A stretch of 64,000 nucleotides of DNA from positions 54,950 to 118,949 of the IMG/VR virus record IMGVR_UViG_3300045988_123324; one strand, written 5' to 3'. The position numbers and the translations under genes are program-made. This stretch comes from a virus. The notes under the pieces were generated by a model. That model saw only the letters and a list, made by a program, of their open reading frames with translations. It did no database searches and had not been told where the DNA came from. Below are positions 3,358 to 33,365 of this stretch, one piece after another; position 1 is the stretch's first letter, and the number at the start of each line of letters is the position of its first letter.

Positions 3358-4641
3358 TTAAAACATATGCTTCAATTCACTTTTTAGTTCTTCCAACTCT
3401 TCCTTTGACGTATCGTCACTCTCAATATCTTCAAGGCTAGGAATAAACGTATAACTCATTCTATCAATATCAAAACTATACGTATATGTTTTCCCAGCAA
3501 TATTCCCACGATTCTTTGATATATAGAATTTCAGTGCATTTTCTGACTTATTGATTGACACCATCTTTGTTGCCGCCCTGCTTACATCATAGCTATCGGC
3601 AATAGACTCTGAATCATCAAGCGCCTCATCTTCTGAACGCTTTTCTGAACTTCGTCTACGCGACTGTGCAACAACAACAACAGGAATCTTAAAGTCATTA
3701 GACAGTCTCAATAACTGCCTAGCAGCCATACCCATCTTTGCACTGATTGACAACTTCCTTGTGTCACCATCTGGTTCAATATATACAAGACCATCAATAA
3801 ACAATATATCAAGTCTCTTTGATTTAATAAACTGTCTACATTTTGAAATGGTTATATTACCATCAAAATCTTCACTGTCTGCAACAAATACGTGTTCCTC
3901 TGATAGGTTCAGTTCATCAAAATACTTTTCATACCCATTGATTAGTAGCCCCTTTTGCATGGCAGAATTAGAAAAATGTGTTCTCGAACTATCCCACCTA
4001 AAACCAATGGACTGCGTGCTCATCTCTGGGGAAATAAACCCAACTCTATTCCCCAGCTTTGATGCGTGTTCCGCACACATAGTAAGAGCGACACTCTTTC
4101 CCACGTTCGATTTAGCGAAGAACACAAACAATTCTTCACCACGTTGAAACCCAAGTAGATCTTCATTCAATTCCTTAAATGGTATCTCAATAAAGCTACT
4201 TTCAGGATCTCTCTGTCTACGTTTCCATTCCTCTAGCCTTGACCTGTCATGAATGATGTCAGTACATGAAAAATCCTCTTGTGGTTGTAGCTTATCAATC
4301 TGCGATAACAGATATTTGCTTGCTTCATTTGCATTTTTCTCATAGAGTTTTGATGCTTTATTTATAACATCCACCGCTCTGTTAAACAATACTTGCTCTC
4401 GAAGATCATCAACTATAGATTTATCTGTCTGTGTTACAATAAAAAATTCAAAGTTAGGAAATTTCTCTATAAACTTCTCTTTATCTGGGACACTACCATA
4501 TTTTTTATAGAAGTCACTTAGGTATTGGAACTCTTTCTTTACCCTAGGAAGATATTCCTCTGTAATCAGATTATCTTCAACTATATTAAAGCTCTTGTCG
4601 GAGAGGATTTTATTGATTAGCTGATATTCTCCTACGCTCAA
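3358..4641 (-). CDS. replicative DNA helicase (DnaB-like)
   Basis: Walker A FFAKSNVGKS, Walker B LDILFIDGL, and the RecA-like C-terminal domain pattern ...VVVVAQSRR. Size is 427 aa. Confidence 0.85.
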   Translation of the reverse strand: MSVGEYQLINKILSDKSFNIVEDNLITEEYLPRVKKEFQYLSDFYKKYGSVPDKEKFIEKFPNFEFFIVTQTDKSIVDDLREQVLFNRAVDVINKASKLYEKNANEASKYLLSQIDKLQPQEDFSCTDIIHDRSRLEEWKRRQRDPESSFIEIPFKELNEDLLGFQRGEELFVFFAKSNVGKSVALTMCAEHASKLGNRVGFISPEMSTQSIGFRWDSSRTHFSNSAMQKGLLINGYEKYFDELNLSEEHVFVADSEDFDGNITISKCRQFIKSKRLDILFIDGLVYIEPDGDTRKLSISAKMGMAARQLLRLSNDFKIPVVVVAQSRRRSSEKRSEDEALDDSESIADSYDVSRAATKMVSINKSENALKFYISKNRGNIAGKTYTYSFDIDRMSYTFIPSLEDIESDDTSKEELEELKSELKHMF

Positions 4642-6214: not shown

Positions 6215-6743
6215 TCTCCTTTAGTCTACCTACTGCTATGTTGTAGTATTTTGGGTCAATTTCACACCCAACAAAATCTCTATTTAGTTTCTTACACGCA
6301 ATGGCTGTTGTTCCAATTCCAAATGCAAAATCACACACAACTTCTCCTTGTTTTGACGAATTTTCAATAAGAATTTCCATCAATTCCACTGGTTTACTTG
6401 TATCATGAAGGTTATTTCCATGTTCATCCTTTAATTTTACGTTCGGAACATCAAGAACATCGGCGGTTCCACAGTTATTTATTTTTACCGCTTTTCCTTT
6501 TCTGAAAAATAGTATATACTCGAAACTATTCATGTAGTACAGTCCAGCAACCTTGTTTCCCTTATTCCATATAAGAGATTTTATGAAATGGAAACCACAA
6601 TTTTGTGCAACCGTTAAAAACTCGTACAAATTTGTATGGTTACACATAATATAGCAATGTCCACCATCTTTTAGTACCCTAAAACATTCTGGAAACCACT
6701 CTTCACATTTAACATTATTGTGTCTAAAAACAGTCCCGTCCAT
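6201..6743 (-). CDS. DNA methyltransferase (N6_N4_Mtase, beta class), C-terminal 180 aa
   Basis: C-terminal SAM motif VCDFAFGIGTTAIACKKLNRDFVGCEID. The DPPY motif lies in a separate upstream frame (6751-6888). Confidence 0.7.
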   Translation of the reverse strand: MDGTVFRHNNVKCEEWFPECFRVLKDGGHCYIMCNHTNLYEFLTVAQNCGFHFIKSLIWNKGNKVAGLYYMNSFEYILFFRKGKAVKINNCGTADVLDVPNVKLKDEHGNNLHDTSKPVELMEILIENSSKQGEVVCDFAFGIGTTAIACKKLNRDFVGCEIDPKYYNIAVGRLKEIESA

Positions 6744-26839: not shown

Positions 26840-28588
26840 TTAGAATCCTACAATTCTTGTTGCATCACTTATTTTTGACTTTGGTTGCATATACATCACA
26901 CCATACCTAAGTGCATCACAATTATGTATAATAATATCTGACGTAGTGACTGCAAAACAATGAGTATCTTCTACCTCCATATTATATACATCTTCGTTTT
27001 CATGTTTATCTATATGAACAAGTTTTGTATGTGATACTGATGTTTTAATCAAATCTTCTGTTGTAATGTCTTTTGCCTCTACCCAACCACGATTTACTGT
27101 CAAAATCCTATGATCTGGTGTAACATTCAATATGTCTCTTGTATCAAATACAAGAGAAATTACTTCTGTATCTTTTCTTGTCATATGAACATCAAAGAAT
27201 CTTCTCGTGCAACAATATCCATTTTCATCACATGTGATAAGTTCTCCTGTTTTTCCAACGAGATCTTCTATTGGTATATAACCTTCTGTTGTATTTATCA
27301 ATGTATCACCAGTTATGCAGGCGTGATCGTCAACCTTACGAGGAAGATCGACTCCCCTAAGTTGCGCTTTCTCATCCCAAACGTATGTCTGTAGCTCTCT
27401 TATGAGATTTTCACACTGTTCCTCTATCAATATTTTTCCTTGTCCCATGTCAGACGCAACTGTCCTTATTCCTGGGAGAACATCATTTATAGCATTTTTT
27501 GTTTTCATGTGAAATCTTCGTGCCTGTAGTTTAAAACTACTTGCAGAAGGGTCAACAACTACAACAATCTGTCTGTATGTTCTCTGTGTTAATTCTGTTT
27601 CTTCGTTTATAAAATCTCTTAGATCATTTACATATTCTATATCTGTTTTTTGTGCTTCTTGGTTTCCGTCCTCTTCTTTTACTGCGGCTCGTCCATCAAA
27701 ATAATATTCTTTGCATACATATATAGTATTATCTATGGTCTTACCGAGCAGTAAAAATGCTGTCGGGTTTGCTGTGCCTATATCACAACACACACACCAA
27801 TCTATTATATCTTCATACGGAATATCCGATTGCTTTATGACATGTTCTTTTTTCTTAAACATATCATATATCAATCCGTCTGCAACCACCCATTTGCCTT
27901 CAATGTATCGTTTTGCAAACACGCCACTAAAATTTTTCTTATATCTATCAAGAACATCTTGTGGTAATGATAAATTATCTTCCATATTAAAATGAACGTA
28001 TAATCCATCTTTCTCTCTTAGTTTCTTTAATACATTCTTATAAAACCAATGATGTGGAGAAGATGGGTTACAATTTATAAACAACTTTGCTCCATCAATA
28101 GATAAACGAGATACTGCTTGATTGTAAAAAGACTCTGGCATTAGAACTGCTTCGTCTAGCAAAAGACCTGCAAGTGTCATACCTTGAATGAGATCTTGTG
28201 ATGATTCGTCCTTACCACCAAAGATAAAGAAGTAATTTACTACCTCACACTTAATTATTTCTATGTAGTTCTCTGATCTGTGTTCAATAACATCATAATC
28301 TAATGCCATAAGCATCTGTTTCAATGTCATAAGCACGTTTCTTCTGAACGATCCTACTGATTTACCACACATCGCAGCATTTTGTTGATTAAACGTGTTC
28401 ATCATAAACAAAACAAAGGATAACGCCATGCTTACTGTCTTTCCGCTGCGAATCGCGCCGTCAGCAATAAGCATAAACGAATCATTTACTGGCGATTTTT
28501 CTGTCCACCAACTTAGAACCTTTAATTGCTTGTTTGAAAAGGGTTTAAATTTAAATGCTGATAATTTCAGTTTCTTGTTATTAGCCAT
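26840..28588 (-). CDS. terL: terminase large subunit (contains a mini-intein)
   Basis: Walker A DGAIRSGKT, Walker B LLLDEA, and nuclease motifs ...VVVDPS... and DDHA|intein|CDALRY. Confidence 0.85.
   Translation of the reverse strand: MANNKKLKLSAFKFKPFSNKQLKVLSWWTEKSPVNDSFMLIADGAIRSGKTVSMALSFVLFMMNTFNQQNAAMCGKSVGSFRRNVLMTLKQMLMALDYDVIEHRSENYIEIIKCEVVNYFFIFGGKDESSQDLIQGMTLAGLLLDEAVLMPESFYNQAVSRLSIDGAKLFINCNPSSPHHWFYKNVLKKLREKDGLYVHFNMEDNLSLPQDVLDRYKKNFSGVFAKRYIEGKWVVADGLIYDMFKKKEHVIKQSDIPYEDIIDWCVCCDIGTANPTAFLLLGKTIDNTIYVCKEYYFDGRAAVKEEDGNQEAQKTDIEYVNDLRDFINEETELTQRTYRQIVVVVDPSASSFKLQARRFHMKTKNAINDVLPGIRTVASDMGQGKILIEEQCENLIRELQTYVWDEKAQLRGVDLPRKVDDHACITGDTLINTTEGYIPIEDLVGKTGELITCDENGYCCTRRFFDVHMTRKDTEVISLVFDTRDILNVTPDHRILTVNRGWVEAKDITTEDLIKTSVSHTKLVHIDKHENEDVYNMEVEDTHCFAVTTSDIIIHNCDALRYGVMYMQPKSKISDATRIVGF
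26921..27319 (-). mobile_element. 133-aa mini-intein (Hint domain, no endonuclease) in the TerL nuclease domain
   Basis: It begins CITGDTLINT and ends DIIIHN, followed by +1 Cys. It contains a TPDH block-B-like motif and interrupts the conserved DDHA-x-DALRY motif. Confidence 0.8.
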
Positions 28589-29258
28589 CTTCCTTTAATG
28601 CCTCATCAAGGTCACTATACACATTATCACCTGTCCATGTATCATCAATTCTTCCAGTAATGGCATCGAGTATTCTGCTATCTTCTTTTGCCTTATTATC
28701 CTTCTCTGCTTGCCACTCCATAAAGTCTTTTATTTTATCCCAACATGAAAGTTTATCTACAAGCTGTATAGTAACTCCATCTTTACCCTGTTTGATACTA
28801 CTGACAAGAGACATATCCAAATCTTTACTGTTATTTAAGAATACTCTGCTTCTTTTATTTGTGATTGGTTCGCCAGTATCCATATTTAGAACTGGATTTC
28901 CTTCTTTATCAAGAACTGGCTTTTCTTCTTCCTCTACTCTTACATAATCTCCTATATTTGCATTTGCAGCTTTTAGAAGAAATTCTATGTACTGTGTTGG
29001 ATCAATATCAAAACCAACTGACATTATCTTTCTTGCTCGCTTTATCGCCGCTCTAATATGTGGTCTTTGTAGTAGTTCACAAGCCTTAACTCTTGATGTT
29101 GTTATATTATCCATATTATATGCCTTGCGATAACTCTGAGCACCGTTGTATGATTCTAAATACAGAAGTAGGAATGTCTTTTCATTCTCAGTCATATCAC
29201 TTCCAAATATTTCTTCAAAAATTTTATCATTTACAACTTCTTTTACGTCTTTTCCCAT
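28581..29258 (-). CDS. terS: terminase small subunit
   Basis: NGAQSYRKAYN....RVKACELLQRPHIRAAI pattern (Terminase_2-like). AAGGAG RBS. Confidence 0.7.
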   Translation of the reverse strand: MGKDVKEVVNDKIFEEIFGSDMTENEKTFLLLYLESYNGAQSYRKAYNMDNITTSRVKACELLQRPHIRAAIKRARKIMSVGFDIDPTQYIEFLLKAANANIGDYVRVEEEEKPVLDKEGNPVLNMDTGEPITNKRSRVFLNNSKDLDMSLVSSIKQGKDGVTIQLVDKLSCWDKIKDFMEWQAEKDNKAKEDSRILDAITGRIDDTWTGDNVYSDLDEALKEDG

Positions 29259-29288
29259 ATGCAATCTCCTTTCTAAATATTATATTTA

Positions 29289-29317
29289 ATTATAACACAA
29301 TTAATTTGTAAAGTCAA
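29289..29317 (-). promoter_or_regulatory. sigma-A-type promoter for terS
   Basis: Minus strand TTGACT, 17-nt spacer, TATAAT. Confidence 0.6.
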
Positions 29318-29321
29318 TAGA

Positions 29322-29356
29322 AAACACAAAAAGCCCACCATTTCTGGTGAGCCTTA
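29322..29356 (-). terminator. intrinsic terminator
   Basis: Minus strand GGCUCACCA-GAAA-UGGUGGGCU followed by UUUUGUGUUUU. Confidence 0.7.
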
Positions 29357-30050
29357 TGCGGAAAGGAGACAATTAAAATGAACTAGGACTTCATAAGACT
29401 TTCGCCTTACTCCGTCTGTGAGACTAGGCAGGTAAACGCGAATACCATTTTGCCTAGAGAACACACACGTCTGTCAAAGAACCACTTTATAAGATGTGGT
29501 AGAAATACTCCGTGTAAGTCATTTCTATAGCGGCTACATACCCAACGCGCTTTCCACATCCAGTAGCCATTGCAACAACACCATTATCTTGTTGCTCCCA
29601 ATCTAGGTTGAAACCTTATCTTCTCTGTAGCAGGATTTTTGGATTTGCACCAAAGTCTTACAACTGGTTTTGTTGTATGTTCTTCTGTTAAACTAAATCC
29701 GCATGGTCGGGCATACAGGTAACGCTCCTGTGTCTTGGGTTTATAAGACCCCTGCACTCACTTTTGTGCTAATGCCCAATATTTCTTATGTAGCCCCACC
29801 CATCGCCCATAAGTTGAAGCCATTCTGACATTCTGCTTTGAGTTGTCAAGCATGCGCTTCCTCCTGCTGTTTGTACTTTTGGCTTTTATTATCTAGGCAC
29901 AGCCTACTCGCACATCATTTTGTTATATATCAGTATTTTGTTTTGCTGTTTGTGCCTACTCACAAGACGCTTATGGACACCTGCTGTGTTAGATTTGATT
30001 TCAGTTCAAATTTATAAATGATTTGCTGTCTGCGTCTTTATGTATATATC
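29357..30050 (-). ncRNA. about 700-nt ORF-free structured region downstream of the DUF2828 gene (candidate large ncRNA or structured 3' UTR)
   Basis: There is no ORF of 60 aa or more on the minus strand. Many complementary segments are present (AAGACGC/GCGUCUU, CUAGGCA/UGCCUAG, GGAUUU/AAAUCC). No internal promoter was seen, and it ends at a strong terminator. Confidence 0.5.
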
Positions 30051-31598
30051 TTACCACATCTTTTTACTGTTGTCAACCCTAATTTCAAAAATTTTATCAA
30101 CAATTTCGTATCGTGGTAAATTAAGTTGCTTTACAAGAGCCTTATACGGATCTAGCTCACTTGACATCACCATATCCATAAGATTCTTGCTGAATCCACT
30201 GATAAGAATTACTCCATTTTCATTCTGCGTGAGAGGTACTGTGTTTGTCCTAGAATTTACGTTCCAGAAAACTAACTTTGGAAGTTTATATCCTTCCTTC
30301 TTGTACTTTTCCGCTATGGTTTCAAACAACGCTTTATTGCCCTTTTCATTGTAATATCCTTGCGCCATGTTGAACTCCATATCACTCACAATTAGTACAG
30401 TCTTTGGCATATCTTCTTGTGATACGCCATTCTTTACTGCGGTGTCAAGAATAAGATCAAAAACACTCTCAATATTCGTACTTGAAATATCATCATATTT
30501 TGCAAGATATTTGAGCTTATCATGAAGATTATCAAGATGTGATACATCAATCAACTTAGCCCATGAACTAAACGTGATGAACTTGTCTTTGAACGCTCCT
30601 TCATTATTCTCTGCACAATAAAGAGTGATTGCATCTGCAACTTCAAGTGCGGTAAGACCTGACTTATCAACTGGAACAGTCATAGATCCGCTACCATCAC
30701 GAACAACAACAGTATCGCTAAACCCATTACACTTATCCTGTGCTTTCCATAGTTGCTCAAGTGTCTCGTCATAATCCTTATGCACGGCACACCATTCACC
30801 AAACTCTGCGTAAGCATGGACAATATCATGGAGAAACATAGCGTTTGCATTGATCTTTGTCTCACCCTTCTTGAGTGATTCAAGATACTTTTCTCTGCGC
30901 TCCCCATCATGACGCTCAAACGCATTACGATAGTTTACATTAGCCTTTGATGGAACTGCTGAGTAGTCAATTTCTCCCCACTCATTTTCAGACATCTTAC
31001 GCTCAACAACATCAATATATGCACGTAGTTCTGATAAAATCTTTCGATATTCGCTCTTTAGCATACCAAGATAATTGCAGATCATCTTTGCTTTTGCACA
31101 AGTTTCTTTACTGCTTGCATTGATGCTAGGAAGCCATTTTGCCAGGAGTGATACAGATTTCTTATCATCCATATCTTGCATATCATTCACAAGTTGCTTG
31201 TCAATCTTATCTAAAATCATATTGCGAATAAAATCATTGTCTGTACGATAGGCAATATCTACGTAATCATCCCATCGACCATATTCCGCAATATCAACTT
31301 CCTTAATAAAGATATTGGCAAGATCAACATCATATGAGATAAGTTCAAGCACAAAGTCTCTAAATGATTTACGCTCGCCGATTCCTTCTCGAACATCCCT
31401 AAGATAAAGAAGCCACTTGAGCGTCAGCTTTTCATCCTCATTGAGTGCTTGCTTAAACAAGTCCTTATCAATAGTCTTTCTAAATGAAGGTACTTGAAAA
31501 TTTAGATCAACTAACTTACTTCCAGATGTTTTAAATCCAACAGCACCATTCTCTGTTACTGACTTTTCGTCATTCTCAATCATTTTCATAAAATCCAT
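30051..31598 (-). CDS. DUF2828-family protein with a C-terminal vWA domain (Ro60/TROVE-like architecture)
   Basis: N-terminal VTENGAVGFKTSGSKLVDLNF (DUF2828 signature as remembered). vWA MIDAS motif VVVRDGSGSM. AGGAGG RBS. Confidence 0.65.
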   Translation of the reverse strand: MDFMKMIENDEKSVTENGAVGFKTSGSKLVDLNFQVPSFRKTIDKDLFKQALNEDEKLTLKWLLYLRDVREGIGERKSFRDFVLELISYDVDLANIFIKEVDIAEYGRWDDYVDIAYRTDNDFIRNMILDKIDKQLVNDMQDMDDKKSVSLLAKWLPSINASSKETCAKAKMICNYLGMLKSEYRKILSELRAYIDVVERKMSENEWGEIDYSAVPSKANVNYRNAFERHDGERREKYLESLKKGETKINANAMFLHDIVHAYAEFGEWCAVHKDYDETLEQLWKAQDKCNGFSDTVVVRDGSGSMTVPVDKSGLTALEVADAITLYCAENNEGAFKDKFITFSSWAKLIDVSHLDNLHDKLKYLAKYDDISSTNIESVFDLILDTAVKNGVSQEDMPKTVLIVSDMEFNMAQGYYNEKGNKALFETIAEKYKKEGYKLPKLVFWNVNSRTNTVPLTQNENGVILISGFSKNLMDMVMSSELDPYKALVKQLNLPRYEIVDKIFEIRVDNSKKMW

Positions 31599-31799
31599 GT
31601 TTTATTCCTCCTAGACACTAAATAGTCAAACTGCTGTAAATGCCTAAATACTCAAGACAGTATCTTGTTAGCTGATTTTAGGTCAGCACAGAATGATTGC
31701 TGTTACTGCCTTTTATTTCATATATTCTCTGGTAGGCAATTATATCCTACTACAAGTCCGCAAACTTGTCAGCCTATTAAATGTTTCAGAGAAAAATTA

Positions 31800-31886
31800 T
31801 GGTGCTGACAGCGAGATTCGAACTCGCACCCACTTAACTAGAACGGTTTTTGAGACCGTCGTGTCTGCCAATTCCACCATGCCAGC
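31800..31886 (-). tRNA. tRNA-Leu (anticodon CAA), type II with long variable arm, CCA encoded
   Basis: GCTGGCA...ACGGT-CTCAAAA-ACCGT...GCGAGTTCGAATCTCGC-TGTCAGC-ACCA folds as a cloverleaf. Confidence 0.85.
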
Positions 31887-31898
31887 ATTATATCATAT

Positions 31899-32138
31899 TC
31901 AAATTCCAAAGTCAAGTCTTTCTTTTGGAATTTCTTGTTCGTATTCTGTACGATAGATTACAACCTTTTCTGCATCATACTTATTATATAACCCAGTTGA
32001 TAGCAAAATCGCATCCATCTCAGTGTGTACTTCACATAGGATCATATTTCCGTGTGTTTCTACATTACTGCATAAAGTTTCTAGCTTTTCTACAAGCTCT
32101 TTGTTTACTTCTTTATAGTAAGATTTAACGAGAATCAT
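31899..32138 (-). CDS. hypothetical protein (79 aa) between tRNA genes
   Basis: AAGGAAGAAG RBS before MILVKSYYKEV. The longer track ORF would overlap tRNA-Arg. Confidence 0.4.
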   Translation of the reverse strand: MILVKSYYKEVNKELVEKLETLCSNVETHGNMILCEVHTEMDAILLSTGLYNKYDAEKVVIYRTEYEQEIPKERLDFGI

Positions 32139-32162
32139 ATTATCTTCTTCCTTATTAACAAA

Positions 32163-32238
32163 TGGTACGCCTAGAGGAACTCGAATCCCCGACAAGTGCT
32201 TTAGAAGAACACTGCTCTTCCAACTGAGCTATAGGCGT
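32163..32238 (-). tRNA. tRNA-Arg (anticodon TCT), CCA encoded
   Basis: ACGCCTA..GCTC-AGTTGGAA-GAGC..GTGTT-CTTCTAA-AGCAC..GGGGA-TTCGAGT-TCCTC-TAGGCGT-ACCA. Confidence 0.85.
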
Positions 32239-32242
32239 ATTA

Positions 32243-32318
32243 TGGAGCTTCTAGCTAGGATTGAACTAGCGACCTACTGATTACAAATCAGTCGTTCTAC
32301 CAACTGAACTATAGAAGC
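32243..32318 (-). tRNA. tRNA-Gln (anticodon TTG), CCA encoded
   Basis: GCTTCTA..GTTC-AGTTGGTA-GAAC..ACTGA-TTTGTAA-TCAGT..TAGAAGC-TCCA. Confidence 0.85.
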
Positions 32319-32319
32319 A

Positions 32320-32603
32320 TGGTGGAGCTGACGGTATTGAAACCGTGTCCAGAGACTACTTTCATATAAACCTTATACACGCTTGTTGAAAAGGTTTTGG
32401 TAGATTAGGTCTACCAGCCCAATGACATAGTTGGTTTTATTAGACCACTAACAACATAACCAACTAGAAAAGTTATTAGTAGTTGCTTTTAAGCCGCTAG
32501 GCTGTAAACTTCGTTTTCGTCAGTTCTTTTGTTTGCTGTTTTACTGGTACGCCCCAGACGTGAGTTTATATGTAGTTTTCCTCTGTCGAAACCTTTCAGC
32601 CCC
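32320..32603 (-). ncRNA. ssrA: tmRNA (284 nt), tag ORF ANKRTDENEVYSLAA
   Basis: The 5' end GGGGCUGAAAGGUUUCGACAGAGG and the 3' end GGUUUCAAUACCGUCAGCUCCACCA form the tRNA-like domain. Internal GCA AAC AAA AGA ACU GAC GAA AAC GAA GUU UAC AGC CUA GCG GCU UAA. Confidence 0.85.
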
Positions 32604-32621
32604 GTTACAGTTCTTATTATA

Positions 32622-33365
32622 TCACTGTGAAACATCTTTGTCAAGCATTTTTTCTGCTTTTTCTTTTGATTCTTTTATTATAGAAATATCTCTCTCGCAA
32701 TCTGCCTTTATAAATCTTAGATTGATTCCATTTTTCTTGCAAGTCTTAATAAATTTTCTATATTCTATTTCACTCACAAGATTACTTCTCCCATTTATTG
32801 CTTCAACAATATAATCATCTAAGTAAAATACATCAACATTCTTTATTGGTGATACATTCATATTTTGGCTATATGCAAAAGTATAAACAGCACACATCAA
32901 AGAAAGTTCAAGTGCGTTTATCTCTGTAATCTTAAAGAAAGGCTCTTGGTATGTAATTTCTCCATTCTTAACAACTGTATAAGAACAAACATTCTTGTAA
33001 TTGCCTAAATATATCTTTAAGTAATCTTCTTCAAAAAATAATCTAATTTTCTTTCTCTTCTTTCTCTCTATTATTCTATATTCCTCAGACAGTCTATATA
33101 CTATATCTCTTTTGGCAAGACGATCTGTCATTAAAGAAAGTTGTTCTCTAAAATCTTCAAGACTATATGTATCTTTATACAAATTGCAATCGTGACAAGA
33201 AGGATTCAAGTTACTTTCATCATCAGTACCACCTTTACGTACTGCTAAGATATGATCTACTCTTAGATTTTTTCTATCTTCTATGAGTTTTCCACAGTAT
33301 GCACACCTCTTACCATACTTCATCCACACATTCTGTCTTGTTTTATCTTGTATTTTGCTTCGCAT
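32622..33365 (-). CDS. HNH endonuclease-domain protein
   Basis: CAYCGK...LRVDHILAVRKGGTDDESNLNPSCHDCN (HNH with Zn Cys pairs). The C-terminal 170 aa are unassigned. Confidence 0.75.
   Translation of the reverse strand: MRSKIQDKTRQNVWMKYGKRCAYCGKLIEDRKNLRVDHILAVRKGGTDDESNLNPSCHDCNLYKDTYSLEDFREQLSLMTDRLAKRDIVYRLSEEYRIIERKKRKKIRLFFEEDYLKIYLGNYKNVCSYTVVKNGEITYQEPFFKITEINALELSLMCAVYTFAYSQNMNVSPIKNVDVFYLDDYIVEAINGRSNLVSEIEYRKFIKTCKKNGINLRFIKADCERDISIIKESKEKAEKMLDKDVSQ

What the first reader, a model, noticed from the sequence alone, without database searches (positions are those of the whole stretch)
29322..31598. Ro60-like (DUF2828 plus vWA) protein followed by a co-transcribed ORF-free structured RNA of about 700 nt
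The 515-aa protein has the DUF2828 N-terminal signature (TENGAxxxxTSG..L(V)D) and a vWA MIDAS motif (DGSGSM). That is the domain logic of Ro60/Rsr, which works as an RNP with Y RNAs. Directly downstream, before the only terminator (29322-29356), lie about 700 nt with no minus-strand ORF and no visible internal promoter. This stretch contains many long-range complementary segments (AAGACGC/GCGUCUU, CUAGGCA/UGCCUAG, GGAUUU/AAAUCC, GACAGACGUGUG pairings). tRNAs and a tmRNA sit just upstream. Known bacterial Rsr loci pair the protein with short Y RNAs of roughly 100-200 nt, so a partner of about 700 nt would be a different kind of RNP. I cannot tell from the sequence alone whether this RNA belongs to a known large-RNA class such as ROOL or GOLLD, which are reported near tRNAs in phages.
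Basis: partly seen in the sequence, partly recalled or inferred. Interest (0 to 1): 0.85.

Follow-up and report, generated by a model that had tools for sequence, protein, structure and literature searches.

The report
Phage Ro60-like protein with small partner RNAs
The 700-base stretch after this phage's Ro60-like gene is not one giant RNA but a string of small RNA genes, and two of them belong to a widespread, apparently undescribed hairpin family that sits beside this protein family in phages and gut bacteria and is probably its RNA partner.

Summary
The protein (30051..31598, minus strand) is DUF2828+DUF7788. Its predicted fold matches only Ro60 rings at full length, so the reading of the protein holds.

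The reading of the RNA does not hold. A strong promoter, conserved in relatives, overlaps the stop codon. No Rfam large-RNA or Y RNA model matches. In 12 related phages the stretch behaves as independent modules: two hairpin RNAs (U1, U2), two further hairpins, a tRNA-Ile(UAU)-like gene, a cloverleaf element, two more structured blocks and a terminator. These modules are present or absent separately.

The real finding is the hairpin unit. It has a 7-bp closing helix of free, fully covarying sequence. NN-ACAGCAA lies directly 3' of the 5' strand, followed by a variable interior, the 3' strand and a G. Four copies flank the gene, and one abuts its ribosome-binding site.

The link to the protein was tested in two directions:
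- RNA first: 92 of 113 bacterial genome loci found by the RNA pattern alone encode a DUF2828 protein within 8 kb, 91 of them on the same strand.
- Protein first: units lie next to the gene in all eight cultured phages checked, including FelixO1 and Listeria, Staphylococcus and Mycobacterium phages.

Longer family members carry a YrlA-type tRNA-like core. The most likely reading is Y-RNA-like partners and an autoregulatory operator. Binding is inferred, not shown.

The parts
30051..31598 (-). Gene for a 515-aa Ro60-like ring protein (DUF2828 + DUF7788/vWA with MIDAS motif DGSGSM)
   Evidence: ORF; Pfam; PHROG 850; AF2 model; Foldseek top hits are all Ro60; 711 phage records hold a homolog.
31744..31772 (-). 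Promoter-like site upstream of unit Ua and the gene (CTGACA-17-TAGGAT; TTGACA in relatives)
   Evidence: Scan, 9/12 match; conserved in relatives. Weak evidence.
31653..31712 (-). Unit Ua: AAGGCAG + UAACAGCAA + interior + CUGUCUU + G (one G-U pair)
   Evidence: Pattern scan; model R1 22.7 bits, E 0.04, third best hit in the window; sequence.
31611..31646 (-). Unit Ub: a mini-unit in the 5' UTR (UAGGCAU + UUACAGCAG + 12 nt + GUGUCUA + G). Its closing G is the first base of the Shine-Dalgarno GGAGG (31611..31607). The start codon is at 31598.
   Evidence: Sequence; conserved in all clade relatives; R1 15.6 bits, E 1.2. The operator role is inferred.
30048..30076 (-). Promoter P1: TTGACA-17-TGgTAAGAT. 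The -10 box starts with the stop codon TAA. The predicted transcription start is about 30041.
   Evidence: Scan, 10/12 match with TG; conserved in 14 related loci.
29963..30038 (-). Unit U1 (76 nt): AAGACGC + AGACAGCAA + 52 nt + GCGUCUU + G
   Evidence: Perfect 7-bp helix; R1 43.5 bits, E 2.4e-6, best hit in the 64-kb window; present in all clade relatives.
29893..29958 (-). Unit U2 (66 nt): UAGGCAC + AAACAGCAA + 42 nt + GUGCCUA + G. It differs from a U1-type helix by two compensatory pair changes.
   Evidence: R1 35.3 bits, E 1e-4.
29785..29860 (-). Block A3: two hairpins (29860..29816, with an apical loop of variable length, and 29813..29785). They are preceded by a conserved AGGAGG-N6-AUG that opens no conserved reading frame.
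   Evidence: Alignment fold with one covarying pair, GAAGC/GCUUC versus GAAGU/ACUUC; reading frame not conserved. Function unknown.
29704..29778 (-). tRNA-Ile(UAU)-like gene with encoded CCA and non-canonical D loop (AAAAGUGA) and T loop (AGCGUUA)
   Evidence: Rfam tRNA 47.2 bits; missed by ARAGORN; 6 of 19 pairs covary in 4 homologs; relatives carry a canonical tRNA-Ile(UAU) at this position.
29626..29702 (-). Block C: a cloverleaf-shaped tRNA-like element starting right after the CCA. It has a bulged acceptor stem and no canonical loops.
   Evidence: The MFE structure is a cloverleaf; 92-96% identical, with sharp borders, in 9 relatives; no Rfam tRNA hit at E<=10.
29493..29599 (-). Block D1: three-hairpin structured element, present only in some relatives
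   Evidence: No covariation, because the sequences are too similar.
29357..29492 (-). Block D2: structured element. It contains a long hairpin (29471..29414) with a conserved loop UUCGCGUU, a GAAA-capped hairpin, and a CUCCUUUCC tract (29368..29360).
   Evidence: z = -3.6; 8 of 37 pairs show compensatory change in 5 sequences; only its 3' 60 nt is present in some relatives.
29321..29355 (-). Intrinsic terminator that ends the small-RNA/tRNA transcription unit
   Evidence: conserved.
29289..29317 (-). Promoter of the small-terminase gene (context boundary; not part of the element)
   Evidence: 11/12 match with TG; Terminase_2 gene downstream in relatives.

Best explanation
SHOWN
- The gene encodes a Ro60-fold ring protein of the DUF2828/DUF7788 family.
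- Four copies of one RNA module flank the gene on its own strand.
- The module has a 7-bp closing helix whose sequence is free but always complementary. NN-ACAGCAA lies immediately 3' of the 5' strand. A variable interior, the 3' strand and a G follow.
- Two copies (Ua, Ub) lie in the leader. The closing G of Ub is the first base of the Shine-Dalgarno sequence.
- Two copies (U1, U2; 76 and 66 nt) are the first products of a separate strong promoter that overlaps the stop codon.
- That promoter's transcript of about 715 nt also carries two hairpins, a tRNA-Ile(UAU)-like gene, a cloverleaf element and two further structured blocks, and ends at the terminator.
- The module and the protein gene are tightly and specifically linked across phages of Gram-positive, Gram-negative and actinobacterial hosts and in gut Firmicutes genomes.

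INFERRED
- The ring protein binds the helix-plus-ACAGCAA module.
- Binding at Ub represses the protein's own translation.
- U1 and U2 are stable Y-RNA-like partners, released from the precursor by tRNA-processing enzymes. They gate or retarget the ring as Y RNAs do for Ro60.
- Longer family members carry a YrlA-type permuted tRNA-like domain, which could bring in tRNA-binding or RNA-decay/repair factors.
- The likely role in infection is RNA surveillance or counter-defence. A Felixounavirus gene product described as Ro60-like counters the ppl defence system.
For: PROTEIN
- Pfam DUF2828 + DUF7788. All seven best PDB fold hits are Ro60, aligned at full length.

THE MODULE IS REAL
- Of 75 distinct ANACAGCAA sites in loci chosen by the protein, 48 have a perfect Watson-Crick 7-mer partner for the 7 nt just upstream. 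All 48 are followed by G. Another 14 have one G-U pair. Controls with a shifted 7-mer give 0-2.
- All 7 pairs covary: 95.7% of cells paired and 38 double-sided changes, with 0 of 500 shuffles as high.
- A covariance model was built from 24 units of unrelated phages, with the homologs of the window's own U1 and U2 left out. Run over the whole 64-kb window, it ranks U1, U2 and Ua first to third and Ub fifth.

LINK TO THE PROTEIN
- In 32 DUF2828 loci there are 88 units on the gene's strand, 0 on the other strand and 0 inside the gene. 59 lie within 250 nt of a gene end, against 8% expected.
- RNA-first scan of 185,579 species' genomes: 92 of 113 loci encode a DUF2828 homolog within 8 kb, 91 on the same strand. 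74 of the 113 have no tRNA gene nearby.
- An RNA-first scan of IMG/VR shows the same enrichment.
- Units lie next to the gene in FelixO1, Listeria LP-048, Enterococcus VRE9_4, Mycobacterium AvadaKedavra, Staphylococcus S-CoN_Ph9, Campylobacter Los1, Bacillus PBC2 and Vibrio PVA23. The homologs tested by Pfam (six of these phages and one Anaerotruncus protein; VRE9_4 and PVA23 were not scanned) are all DUF2828+DUF7788, not TROVE.

Y-RNA LIKENESS
- Members of 114-126 nt hold a T arm, an acceptor hairpin and a D arm in YrlA order. They score 28-44 bits on Rfam YrlA.

OWN PROMOTER AND MOSAIC STRUCTURE
-.

LITERATURE
- Ro60 genes sit next to their Y RNA genes (PMC4201824).
- A phage Ro60 binds two adjacent Yrl RNAs (PMC12135203).
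- Bas63 gp130 is described as Ro60-like and counters ppl. Its partner RNAs were only guessed at (PMC11482910).
Against: - There is no binding, expression or processing data. Everything about the RNA-protein contact is inferred from co-location.
- The canonical Ro-binding motifs (GGUCCGA; GNCGAAN0-1G) are absent.
- The window's units get no Rfam YrlA or Y_RNA hit even at E<=10, and U1 and U2 lack a tRNA-like domain.
- The protein is not detectably TROVE by sequence: there is no Pfam TROVE hit and no Ro60 hit from a family profile against PDB sequences.
- In many bacterial loci there is a single unit upstream of the gene. That fits a purely cis-acting leader as well as it fits an sRNA.
- Only a minority of units have an obvious promoter directly upstream.
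- The roles of A3, C, D1 and D2 remain unexplained.
- The statistics count related loci, so the p-values overstate independence.
Confidence: 0.6

Rival explanations
1. The units are only cis-acting operators or leader elements of the DUF2828 mRNA. They would give autogenous or other translational control and would not be stable trans-acting Y-like RNAs.
For: - Ub abuts the Shine-Dalgarno sequence.
- In many lineages a unit ends 12-25 nt before the start codon.
- In bacterial loci the usual layout is one unit 26-500 nt upstream of the gene.
Against: - U1 and U2 lie downstream of the gene behind their own strong promoter.
- Tandem arrays of 3-6 units occur.
- Units lie within 45 nt downstream of the gene's end in Staphylococcus and Mycobacterium phages.
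- Some members carry a complete YrlA-type tRNA-like domain.
- The two roles do not exclude each other.
Confidence: 0.17
2. The units are recognised by something other than the neighbouring protein. Examples are a host RNase or processing machinery that punctuates tRNA/sRNA precursors, or another phage factor. The link to DUF2828 would then be indirect.
For: - Units are interspersed with tRNAs in FelixO1 and Bacillus PBC2 arrays.
- ROOL and GOLLD RNAs share such arrays.
- No binding data exist.
Against: - 74 of 113 RNA-first genome loci have no tRNA within 8 kb, yet 92 of 113 have the protein gene.
- Strand and distance coupling to the gene is strict.
- The single-stranded motif is invariant across hosts as different as Mycobacterium, Campylobacter, Listeria and E. 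coli. That argues for a co-travelling reader encoded by the phage or the locus.
Confidence: 0.12
3. One reading: the whole 700 nt is one large structured RNA that partners the Ro-like protein.
For: - There is one promoter and one terminator, so a primary transcript of about 715 nt is likely.
- The overall fold has z = -5.75.
Against: - Modules are gained and lost independently in relatives. Between the units and block C there are one to four tRNAs. C, D1 and part of D2 are optional.
- An internal tRNA with encoded CCA would be excised.
- All supported pairings are local.
- No large-RNA family matches.
Confidence: 0.03
4. The stretch hides a small protein gene, for example the 31-codon ORF 29758..29853 with a strong AGGAGG ribosome-binding site.
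For: AGGAGG-N6-ATG and the first three or four codons (MLD...) are conserved in 10 relatives.
Against: - Indels shift the reading frame while the nucleotide sequence downstream stays conserved. Predicted products range from 18 to 50 aa with unrelated C-termini.
- The other small ORFs are broken by stops in relatives.
Confidence: 0.03

Closest known systems
Bacterial Ro60 (Rsr) with YrlA/YrlB or Yrn1 Y RNAs (Chen et al. 2014, PMC4201824; Rfam RF02553)
   Same: - A ring-shaped HEAT-repeat plus vWA protein.
- Small RNAs encoded next to the gene on the same strand, often in tandem.
- The RNA is closed by a helix formed from its 5' and 3' ends, with a conserved motif on the 5' side.
- Some family members carry the same permuted tRNA-like domain (T arm, acceptor hairpin, D arm).
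- Other members lack that domain, as YrlB does.
   Different: - The protein is DUF2828/DUF7788, not Pfam TROVE, and is similar to Ro60 only at fold level.
- The recognition module is a 7-bp helix of free sequence plus NN-ACAGCAA and a 3' G, not GNCGAAN0-1G or GGUCCGA.
- The window's units are shorter (36-76 nt).
- One unit sits on the gene's own ribosome-binding site.
- The Rfam YrlA model does not detect the window's units.
Thermus phage phiLo Ro60 with Yrl1/Yrl2 (PMC12135203; PDB 9L5Y)
   Same: - It is the best structural match of the model (E 1e-8, TM 0.56-0.61).
- It is a phage-encoded Ro60 with two adjacent Y-like RNA genes.
- A role against host defence has been proposed for it.
   Different: - phiLo Ro60 was identified as a Ro60 homolog by a UniProt database search, and its RNAs carry the CGAA motif.
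- Sequence identity to the window protein is 14-15%.
- The phiLo RNAs lie upstream only.
Bas63 (Felixounavirus) gp130, 'Ro60-like' counter of the ppl defence system (PhageMaP preprint, PMC11482910)
   Same: - It is probably the ortholog of FelixO1 ORF86. That gene is a DUF2828/DUF7788 homolog of the window protein and lies directly upstream of the tRNA array.
- FelixO1 has four units in the first kilobase of that array. The region is conserved in 260 records.
   Different: - The authors only suggested that some annotated tRNAs might be Y RNAs. The units found here lie between the tRNAs.
- Orthology of gp130 with ORF86 rests on gene position and taxonomy. I did not verify it on the Bas63 record.
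ROOL and GOLLD large RNAs of phage tRNA regions (Rfam RF03087, RF02032)
   Same: They share the same genomic habitat. ROOL (L074, L042) and a sub-threshold GOLLD match (L064; 103 bits against a gathering score of 150) occur in phage tRNA arrays that also hold units.
   Different: There is no match in the window at the gathering threshold, or at E<=10 on 29200..30150. The window's stretch is a mosaic of small elements, not one ornate RNA.
Translational operators bound by the protein they regulate (for example phage T4 RegA and gp32, MS2 coat protein, ribosomal-protein leaders); from general knowledge
   Same: A small helix-plus-motif element overlaps or abuts the ribosome-binding site of the gene for the presumed RNA-binding protein (Ub).
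   Different: The same module also occurs as free-standing tandem RNA genes and with tRNA-like cores. Repression has not been tested.

Membership tests
Ro60/TROVE protein family | Ring of HEAT-like helical repeats followed by a vWA domain with a MIDAS motif (the fold) | tested here: met
   AF2 model with pLDDT 81 and pTM 0.78. The top 7 Foldseek PDB hits are all Ro60, with 512-590 aligned columns and E 1e-8 to 9e-6. DGSGSM is invariant in 35 homologs.
Ro60/TROVE protein family | Sequence-level match to the TROVE domain or to solved Ro60 chains | tested here: not met
   Pfam gives DUF2828 + DUF7788 and only a sub-threshold vWA_Ro60 hit (16.8 bits against 27.7). There is no TROVE hit. phmmer and a family profile against PDB sequences find no Ro60.
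Ro60/TROVE protein family | Binds Y RNA and misfolded RNA | not testable with these tools
   Needs RIP/CLIP or EMSA.
YrlA / Y RNA (Rfam RF02553, RF00019) | Covariance-model score at or above the gathering threshold | tested here: not met
   No hit in the window at the gathering threshold, or at E<=10 on 29200..30150. Longer relatives elsewhere score 26-44 bits against a gathering score of 69.
YrlA / Y RNA (Rfam RF02553, RF00019) | 5' and 3' ends pair to form the closing helix; gene adjacent to the Ro gene on the same strand | tested here: met
YrlA / Y RNA (Rfam RF02553, RF00019) | Conserved Ro-binding motif GNCGAAN0-1G (bacterial) or GGUCCGA (metazoan) in the 5' strand | tested here: not met
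   Sequence inspection shows the conserved element is NN-ACAGCAA. The motif definition is from PMC4201824.
YrlA / Y RNA (Rfam RF02553, RF00019) | tRNA-like domain (T arm, acceptor hairpin, D arm) | tested here: not met
   Absent from Ua, Ub, U1 and U2. Present in other members of the same unit family: L056, L113, FelixO1 6421-6545, PBC2 459-576, AvadaKedavra 3980-4105.
ROOL / GOLLD / HEARO / OLE large RNAs | Rfam covariance-model match | tested here: not met
   The same search does find ROOL, and a sub-threshold GOLLD match, in other loci, so those two models were seen to work in this setting.
tRNA (for 29778..29704) | Cloverleaf with covarying arms, 7-nt anticodon loop, CCA end | tested here: met
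   Rfam tRNA 47.2 bits against a gathering score of 29. 6 of 19 pairs are compensatory in 4 homologs. ACCA is encoded.
tRNA (for 29778..29704) | Canonical D loop (GG) and T loop (UUCRANY) | tested here: not met
   The D loop is AAAAGUGA and the T loop is AGCGUUA, both invariant in homologs. ARAGORN does not call it.
ACAGCAA-helix unit (family defined here) | 7-bp closing helix + NN-ACAGCAA + interior + 3' strand + G, on the strand of a nearby DUF2828 gene | tested here: met
   U1 scores 43.5 bits, U2 35.3 and Ua 22.7 with a model trained on units from unrelated phages. Ub is a shortened variant (15.6 bits; motif ends in G; two G-U pairs).

The most novel reading that the evidence does not exclude
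DUF2828/DUF7788 proteins and the ACAGCAA-helix RNAs would form a distinct, widespread branch of Ro-type ribonucleoproteins, found in many phage lineages and in gut Firmicutes. This branch would have its own RNA recognition code and an autoregulatory copy on the gene's leader. It would also have interchangeable RNA 'cargo' interiors that range from bare hairpins to permuted tRNA mimics and whole embedded tRNAs. Phages would use it to manage damaged RNA or to disarm host defences such as ppl.
Probability: 0.5. Interest if true: 0.75.

Novelty: new variant of a known kind. Interest (0 to 1): 0.62.

Why it matters
Homologs of this protein are present in 711 of 50,697 deposited phage genomes. These include Felixounaviruses, Listeria, Staphylococcus and Campylobacter phages, and mycobacteriophages. 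Most are annotated only as 'hypothetical' or 'RNA-binding protein'.

One probable ortholog, Bas63 gp130, has an anti-defence phenotype. Its RNA partners have only been guessed at (PMC11482910).

A precise and easily searched RNA module next to these genes provides three things:
- a concrete candidate ligand for binding and structural work;
- a way to annotate hundreds of overlooked small RNA genes, some of which are currently miscalled as tiny ORFs;
- a second, independent 'recognition code' to compare with classical Ro60-Y RNA pairs.

For this window specifically, the analysis replaces a claim of a giant RNA with an ordinary but informative sRNA/tRNA operon.

Tried and rejected
- Rfam scan of the whole window at gathering thresholds, and of 29200..30150 at E<=10. 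No ROOL, GOLLD, HEARO, OLE, Y_RNA or YrlA match; only the tRNA hit.
- blastn of the 760-nt stretch against 50,697 phage records: no match.
- A second internal promoter (29849..29822, 10/12 match). Rejected: its 'TTGACA' is the 5' strand of a hairpin whose loop length varies, so the -35/-10 spacing is not conserved.
- The small ORF with a strong ribosome-binding site (29758..29853). Rejected: the reading frame is not conserved. The other small ORFs are broken in relatives.
- A third 'CAAACAGCAGG' site in A3 as a further unit. Rejected: it has no complementary partner, and the motif is not conserved in relatives.
- First IMG/VR pattern scan with only the 16-nt 5' half. Most of its 120 loci were chance matches, although it did reveal the family.
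- Sequence and profile searches against PDB chains: no Ro60.
- Looking for A3, C, D1 and D2 outside the window's clade: none found in 2.26 Mb of fetched loci.
- Guessing the Bas63 accession returned a different phage.
- The Ro60 review (PMC10870794) and the supplement of Chen et al. 2014 are not held in the library.
- The idea that an A just before the helix pairs across a bulged G was considered. It does not hold for U2.
Full report
WHAT IS AT THE COORDINATES

The minus strand of 29200..32700 reads, in order of transcription:
- an HNH-endonuclease-like ORF;
- a 12/12 promoter and a tmRNA (32603..32320);
- tRNA-Thr and tRNA-Arg;
- a small ORF;
- a promoter and tRNA-Leu (31886..31800);
- the 515-aa gene (31598..30051);
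- about 730 nt without a long ORF;
- one intrinsic terminator (29355..29330);
- a promoter, then the small and large terminase genes.

Sources; the terminase identities come from relatives. An identical protein is on record as 'DUF2828 family protein, Myoviridae sp. ctqfO1'.

THE PROTEIN

- It carries Pfam DUF2828 (2.9e-33) and DUF7788 (4.5e-46). A vWA_Ro60 hit is below threshold. It matches PHROG 850, 'RNA-binding protein'.
- Sequence searches against solved structures find no Ro60, either with the single sequence or with a 35-member profile.
- The AlphaFold model built on that alignment has pLDDT 81 and pTM 0.78. Its seven best PDB matches are Ro60 chains aligned over the full length: Thermus phage phiLo, Deinococcus Rsr and human Ro60. 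Isolated vWA domains come only after these.
- The MIDAS residues D301, S303 and S305 are invariant.
- The protein is therefore Ro60-like in fold, but it belongs to a separate sequence family.
- Homologs occur in 711 phage records, all below 37% identity to this protein.

THE 700 NT IS NOT ONE RNA

- Promoter: TTGACA-17-TGgTAAGAT at 30076..30048 is a strong promoter. Its -10 box begins with the stop codon. It is conserved in 14 related loci. In L002 the coding sequence ends earlier, so there it lies wholly downstream of the gene.
- Rfam: the only hit in the stretch is a tRNA at 29778..29707.
- Relatives: I collected 12 further loci of the same clade, at 74-95% protein identity, and mapped the window's segments onto them. 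The order is constant, but the modules are gained and lost independently:
  - U1 and U2 are always present.
  - A3 is usually present.
  - Extra hairpin units and one to four tRNAs follow. The last is always tRNA-Ile(UAU), or the window's odd version of it.
  - Block C is absent in two loci.
  - Block D1 is complete in only four, and the 5' half of D2 in only five.
  - The last 60 nt of D2 and the terminator are always present.
- All supported base pairs are local.
- The small ORFs are not conserved. The one with a strong ribosome-binding site changes reading frame among relatives while its DNA stays conserved.
- The promoter and terminator do imply a primary transcript of about 715 nt. It is a precursor of several small RNAs and a tRNA.

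THE HAIRPIN UNIT

U1 (30038..29963) and U2 (29958..29893) share one design:
- a perfect 7-bp closing helix (AAGACGC/GCGUCUU in U1; UAGGCAC/GUGCCUA in U2);
- A-N-ACAGCAA immediately after the 5' strand;
- 42-52 nt of unrelated interior;
- the 3' strand;
- a G.

A loose pattern scan of IMG/VR showed the same design in many unrelated viral contigs.

I then tested the design without selecting on complementarity. The sample was loci chosen only because they encode the protein.
- Of 75 distinct ANACAGCAA sites, 48 have a perfect Watson-Crick partner for the preceding 7-mer within 20-140 nt. All 48 are followed by G. Another 14 have a single G-U pair.
- Taking a 7-mer shifted by 9, 15 or 25 nt gives 0-2 perfect partners.
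- Across 20 different helices, every one of the 7 pairs shows changes on both sides. 95.7% of cells are paired, against 25-44% when the partner is slid by 1-3 columns.

A covariance model was trained on 24 units from other phages, leaving out the homologs of the window's U1 and U2. It was run over the whole window on both strands without filters. The results were:
- U1: 43.5 bits, E 2e-6;
- U2: 35.3 bits, E 1e-4;
- Ua (31712..31653): 22.7 bits, E 0.04, the third-best hit;
- Ub (31646..31611): 15.6 bits, the fifth-best hit.

Ub is a shortened unit. Its closing G is the first base of the GGAGG ribosome-binding site, 13 nt before the start codon. It is conserved throughout the clade.

LINK TO THE PROTEIN

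Protein-first test, in 32 loci:
- There are 88 units on the gene's strand, none on the other strand and none inside the gene.
- 59 lie within 250 nt of a gene end, where 8% would be expected.

RNA-first test, scanning one genome for each of 185,579 species with AAGACRCANACAGCAA-N30-60-GYGTCTTG:
- The scan returned 113 loci, mostly gut Clostridia MAGs and isolates such as Oribacterium, Faecalimonas and Anaerotruncus.
- 92 of them encode a DUF2828 homolog within the 8 kb fetched, 91 on the same strand. The unit usually lies 26-500 nt upstream of the gene.
- 74 of the 113 have no tRNA gene in the fetched stretch. The link is therefore to the protein, not to tRNA arrays.

Cultured phages (annotation):
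- FelixO1: four units between the first tRNAs downstream of ORF86.
- Listeria LP-048: three units immediately upstream.
- Enterococcus VRE9_4: one unit upstream.
- Mycobacterium AvadaKedavra: units within 45 nt downstream of the gene's end.
- Staphylococcus S-CoN_Ph9: three units immediately downstream.
- Campylobacter Los1: two units upstream.
- Bacillus PBC2: six units upstream.
- Vibrio PVA23: one 6-bp version over the start codon.
- The six phage homologs scanned with Pfam (all but VRE9_4 and PVA23), plus an Anaerotruncus homolog, are DUF2828+DUF7788 and none is TROVE.

RELATION TO Y RNAs

- Units of 114-126 nt enclose a T arm, an acceptor-like hairpin and a D arm in that order. This is the permuted tRNA-like layout of YrlA.
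- Rfam's YrlA model aligns to that core at 26-44 bits, below its 69-bit threshold. It does not align to the closing module.
- In AvadaKedavra, three units follow the gene. The middle one has the YrlA-like core and the motif variant UAGCAGCAA.
- The known Rsr-binding motif GNCGAAN0-1G (PMC4201824) is absent.
- The family therefore shares the architecture and the gene linkage of Y RNAs, but it has a different closing module. The window's own units lack the tRNA-like core, as YrlB does.
- No Rfam family covers the short units. I found no description of them in the held literature. The PhageMaP preprint calls Bas63 gp130 Ro60-like and only suggests that some downstream tRNA genes might be Y RNAs.

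HOW IT MOST LIKELY WORKS

Shown: the protein fold, the RNA module, the strict co-location and co-orientation, the separate promoter, and the mosaic structure of the stretch.

Inferred:
- The ring protein recognises the end of the helix together with the single-stranded ACAGCAA.
- Binding at Ub occludes the ribosome-binding site and limits the protein's own synthesis.
- U1 and U2 are made in excess from P1 and freed when RNase P and RNase Z cut out the tRNA. They form the working RNP.
- By analogy with Ro60-Y RNA, they would control access to the ring or tether it to other factors.
- The purpose during infection is open. RNA quality control or repair is one option: Listeria LP-048 has an RtcB-like ligase 1.3 kb downstream of the gene. 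Counter-defence is the other (Bas63 gp130 against ppl).

I put 0.6 on 'the units are the protein's cognate RNAs'. I put less on any particular downstream function.

WHAT REMAINS UNEXPLAINED IN THE STRETCH

- A3: two hairpins behind a conserved AGGAGG-N6-AUG with no conserved reading frame.
- tRNA-Ile(UAU)-like gene: it has invariant non-canonical D and T loops, but all four arms covary.
- Block C: a sharply bounded cloverleaf that is 92-96% conserved and is not recognised as a tRNA.
- Blocks D1 and D2: D2 has clear compensatory changes.
- All of these are confined to the window's clade.

VERDICT

The protein is Ro60-like and the neighbouring DNA very probably encodes its RNAs. The '700-nt partner' is a composite sRNA/tRNA operon with its own promoter.

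The interesting content is the ACAGCAA-helix unit family, which is widespread, specific to this protein family and apparently undescribed. It is a new variant of the Ro60-Y RNA theme, and it is directly testable.

Noticed in passing
window 29704..29778 (-); also L006 3995-4070, L155 2753-2828, L004 5323-5398: A tRNA-Ile(UAU)-like gene with invariant non-canonical D loop (AAAAGUGA, no GG) and T loop (AGCGUUA) and an encoded CCA. All four arms covary. 96%-identical copies occur in otherwise diverged phages, while close relatives carry a canonical tRNA-Ile(UAU) at the same position. ARAGORN misses it.
   Followed up: partly
window 29626..29702 (-): A sharply bounded element, 92-96% conserved, that starts right after the tRNA's CCA. 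It folds as a cloverleaf (bulged acceptor stem, 6-bp 'anticodon' stem, loop AAAACCA, T loop UGCAAAU). The Rfam tRNA model does not detect it.
   Followed up: partly
window 29357..29492 (-), also 29493..29599: Structured blocks D2 and D1. D2 has 8 of 37 pairs with compensatory change in 5 sequences and a conserved loop UUCGCGUU. A CUCCUUUCC tract (29368..29360), which resembles the 3' end of 16S rRNA, lies just before the terminator. No known family matches, and the blocks are confined to this phage clade.
   Followed up: partly
window 29785..29873 (-): A conserved AGGAGG-N6-AUG followed by two conserved hairpins. The downstream reading frame is not conserved (predicted products of 18-50 aa with unrelated ends). 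This could be a decoy ribosome-binding site or a regulatory hairpin.
   Followed up: partly
window 32320..32603 (-): A phage-encoded tmRNA (Rfam 79.5 bits). A perfect 12/12 sigma-70 promoter with TG extension (32644..32616) precedes it, and tRNA-Thr and tRNA-Arg follow directly. An HNH-motif ORF lies upstream at 32622..33365.
   Followed up: no
window 26840..28588 (-): The large terminase ORF appears to contain a mini-intein (…DDHA/CITGDTLI … IIHN/CDALRYG). Relatives have Hom_end/LAGLIDADG/Intein_splicing hits or a split terminase at the same place.
   Followed up: no
L074 4082-4706, L042 1-552 (ROOL); L064 1447-1903 (GOLLD, 103 bits, below threshold): ROOL and GOLLD-like large RNAs lie in the same phage tRNA arrays that contain ACAGCAA-helix units. 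tmRNA genes are also there (L074, L106).
   Followed up: no
L186 2042-4301 (Anaerotruncus sp. MC2020); L244 2640-3647 (Oribacterium asaccharolyticum): In bacterial chromosomal loci the unit+DUF2828 pair sits next to divergently oriented genes for WYL/WCX-domain proteins, which are putative ligand-sensing regulators. This suggests a regulated stress or defence operon.
   Followed up: partly
L171 778-900 (Bacillus phage PBC2); L057 360-459; L117 1443-1541: Some units enclose what looks like a whole or nearly whole tRNA in normal order (D arm, anticodon arm, T arm) instead of the permuted YrlA-type core. In PBC2 the enclosed sequence is annotated as tRNA-Ile. That record also lists its tRNAs on the strand opposite to the one on which they fold.
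   Followed up: no
L168 4001-4090 and 4220-4348 (Staphylococcus phage S-CoN_Ph9); L164 5619-5870, 6105-6269, 6414-6644 (FelixO1 ORF91, 92, 94): Deposited annotations place tiny 'hypothetical protein' CDSs over the units and over tRNAs. These are probably miscalls.
   Followed up: no
L056 2610-2661: A sub-threshold match to the type-P1 twister ribozyme (34.7 bits, E 8e-4) inside a phage tRNA array.
   Followed up: no
480 distinct units across all fetched loci: The base just before the closing helix is A in 76% of units, and the base after the closing G is U in 60%. About a quarter of the units have a -10-like hexamer 4-10 nt upstream, so many may start at or near the helix.
   Followed up: partly
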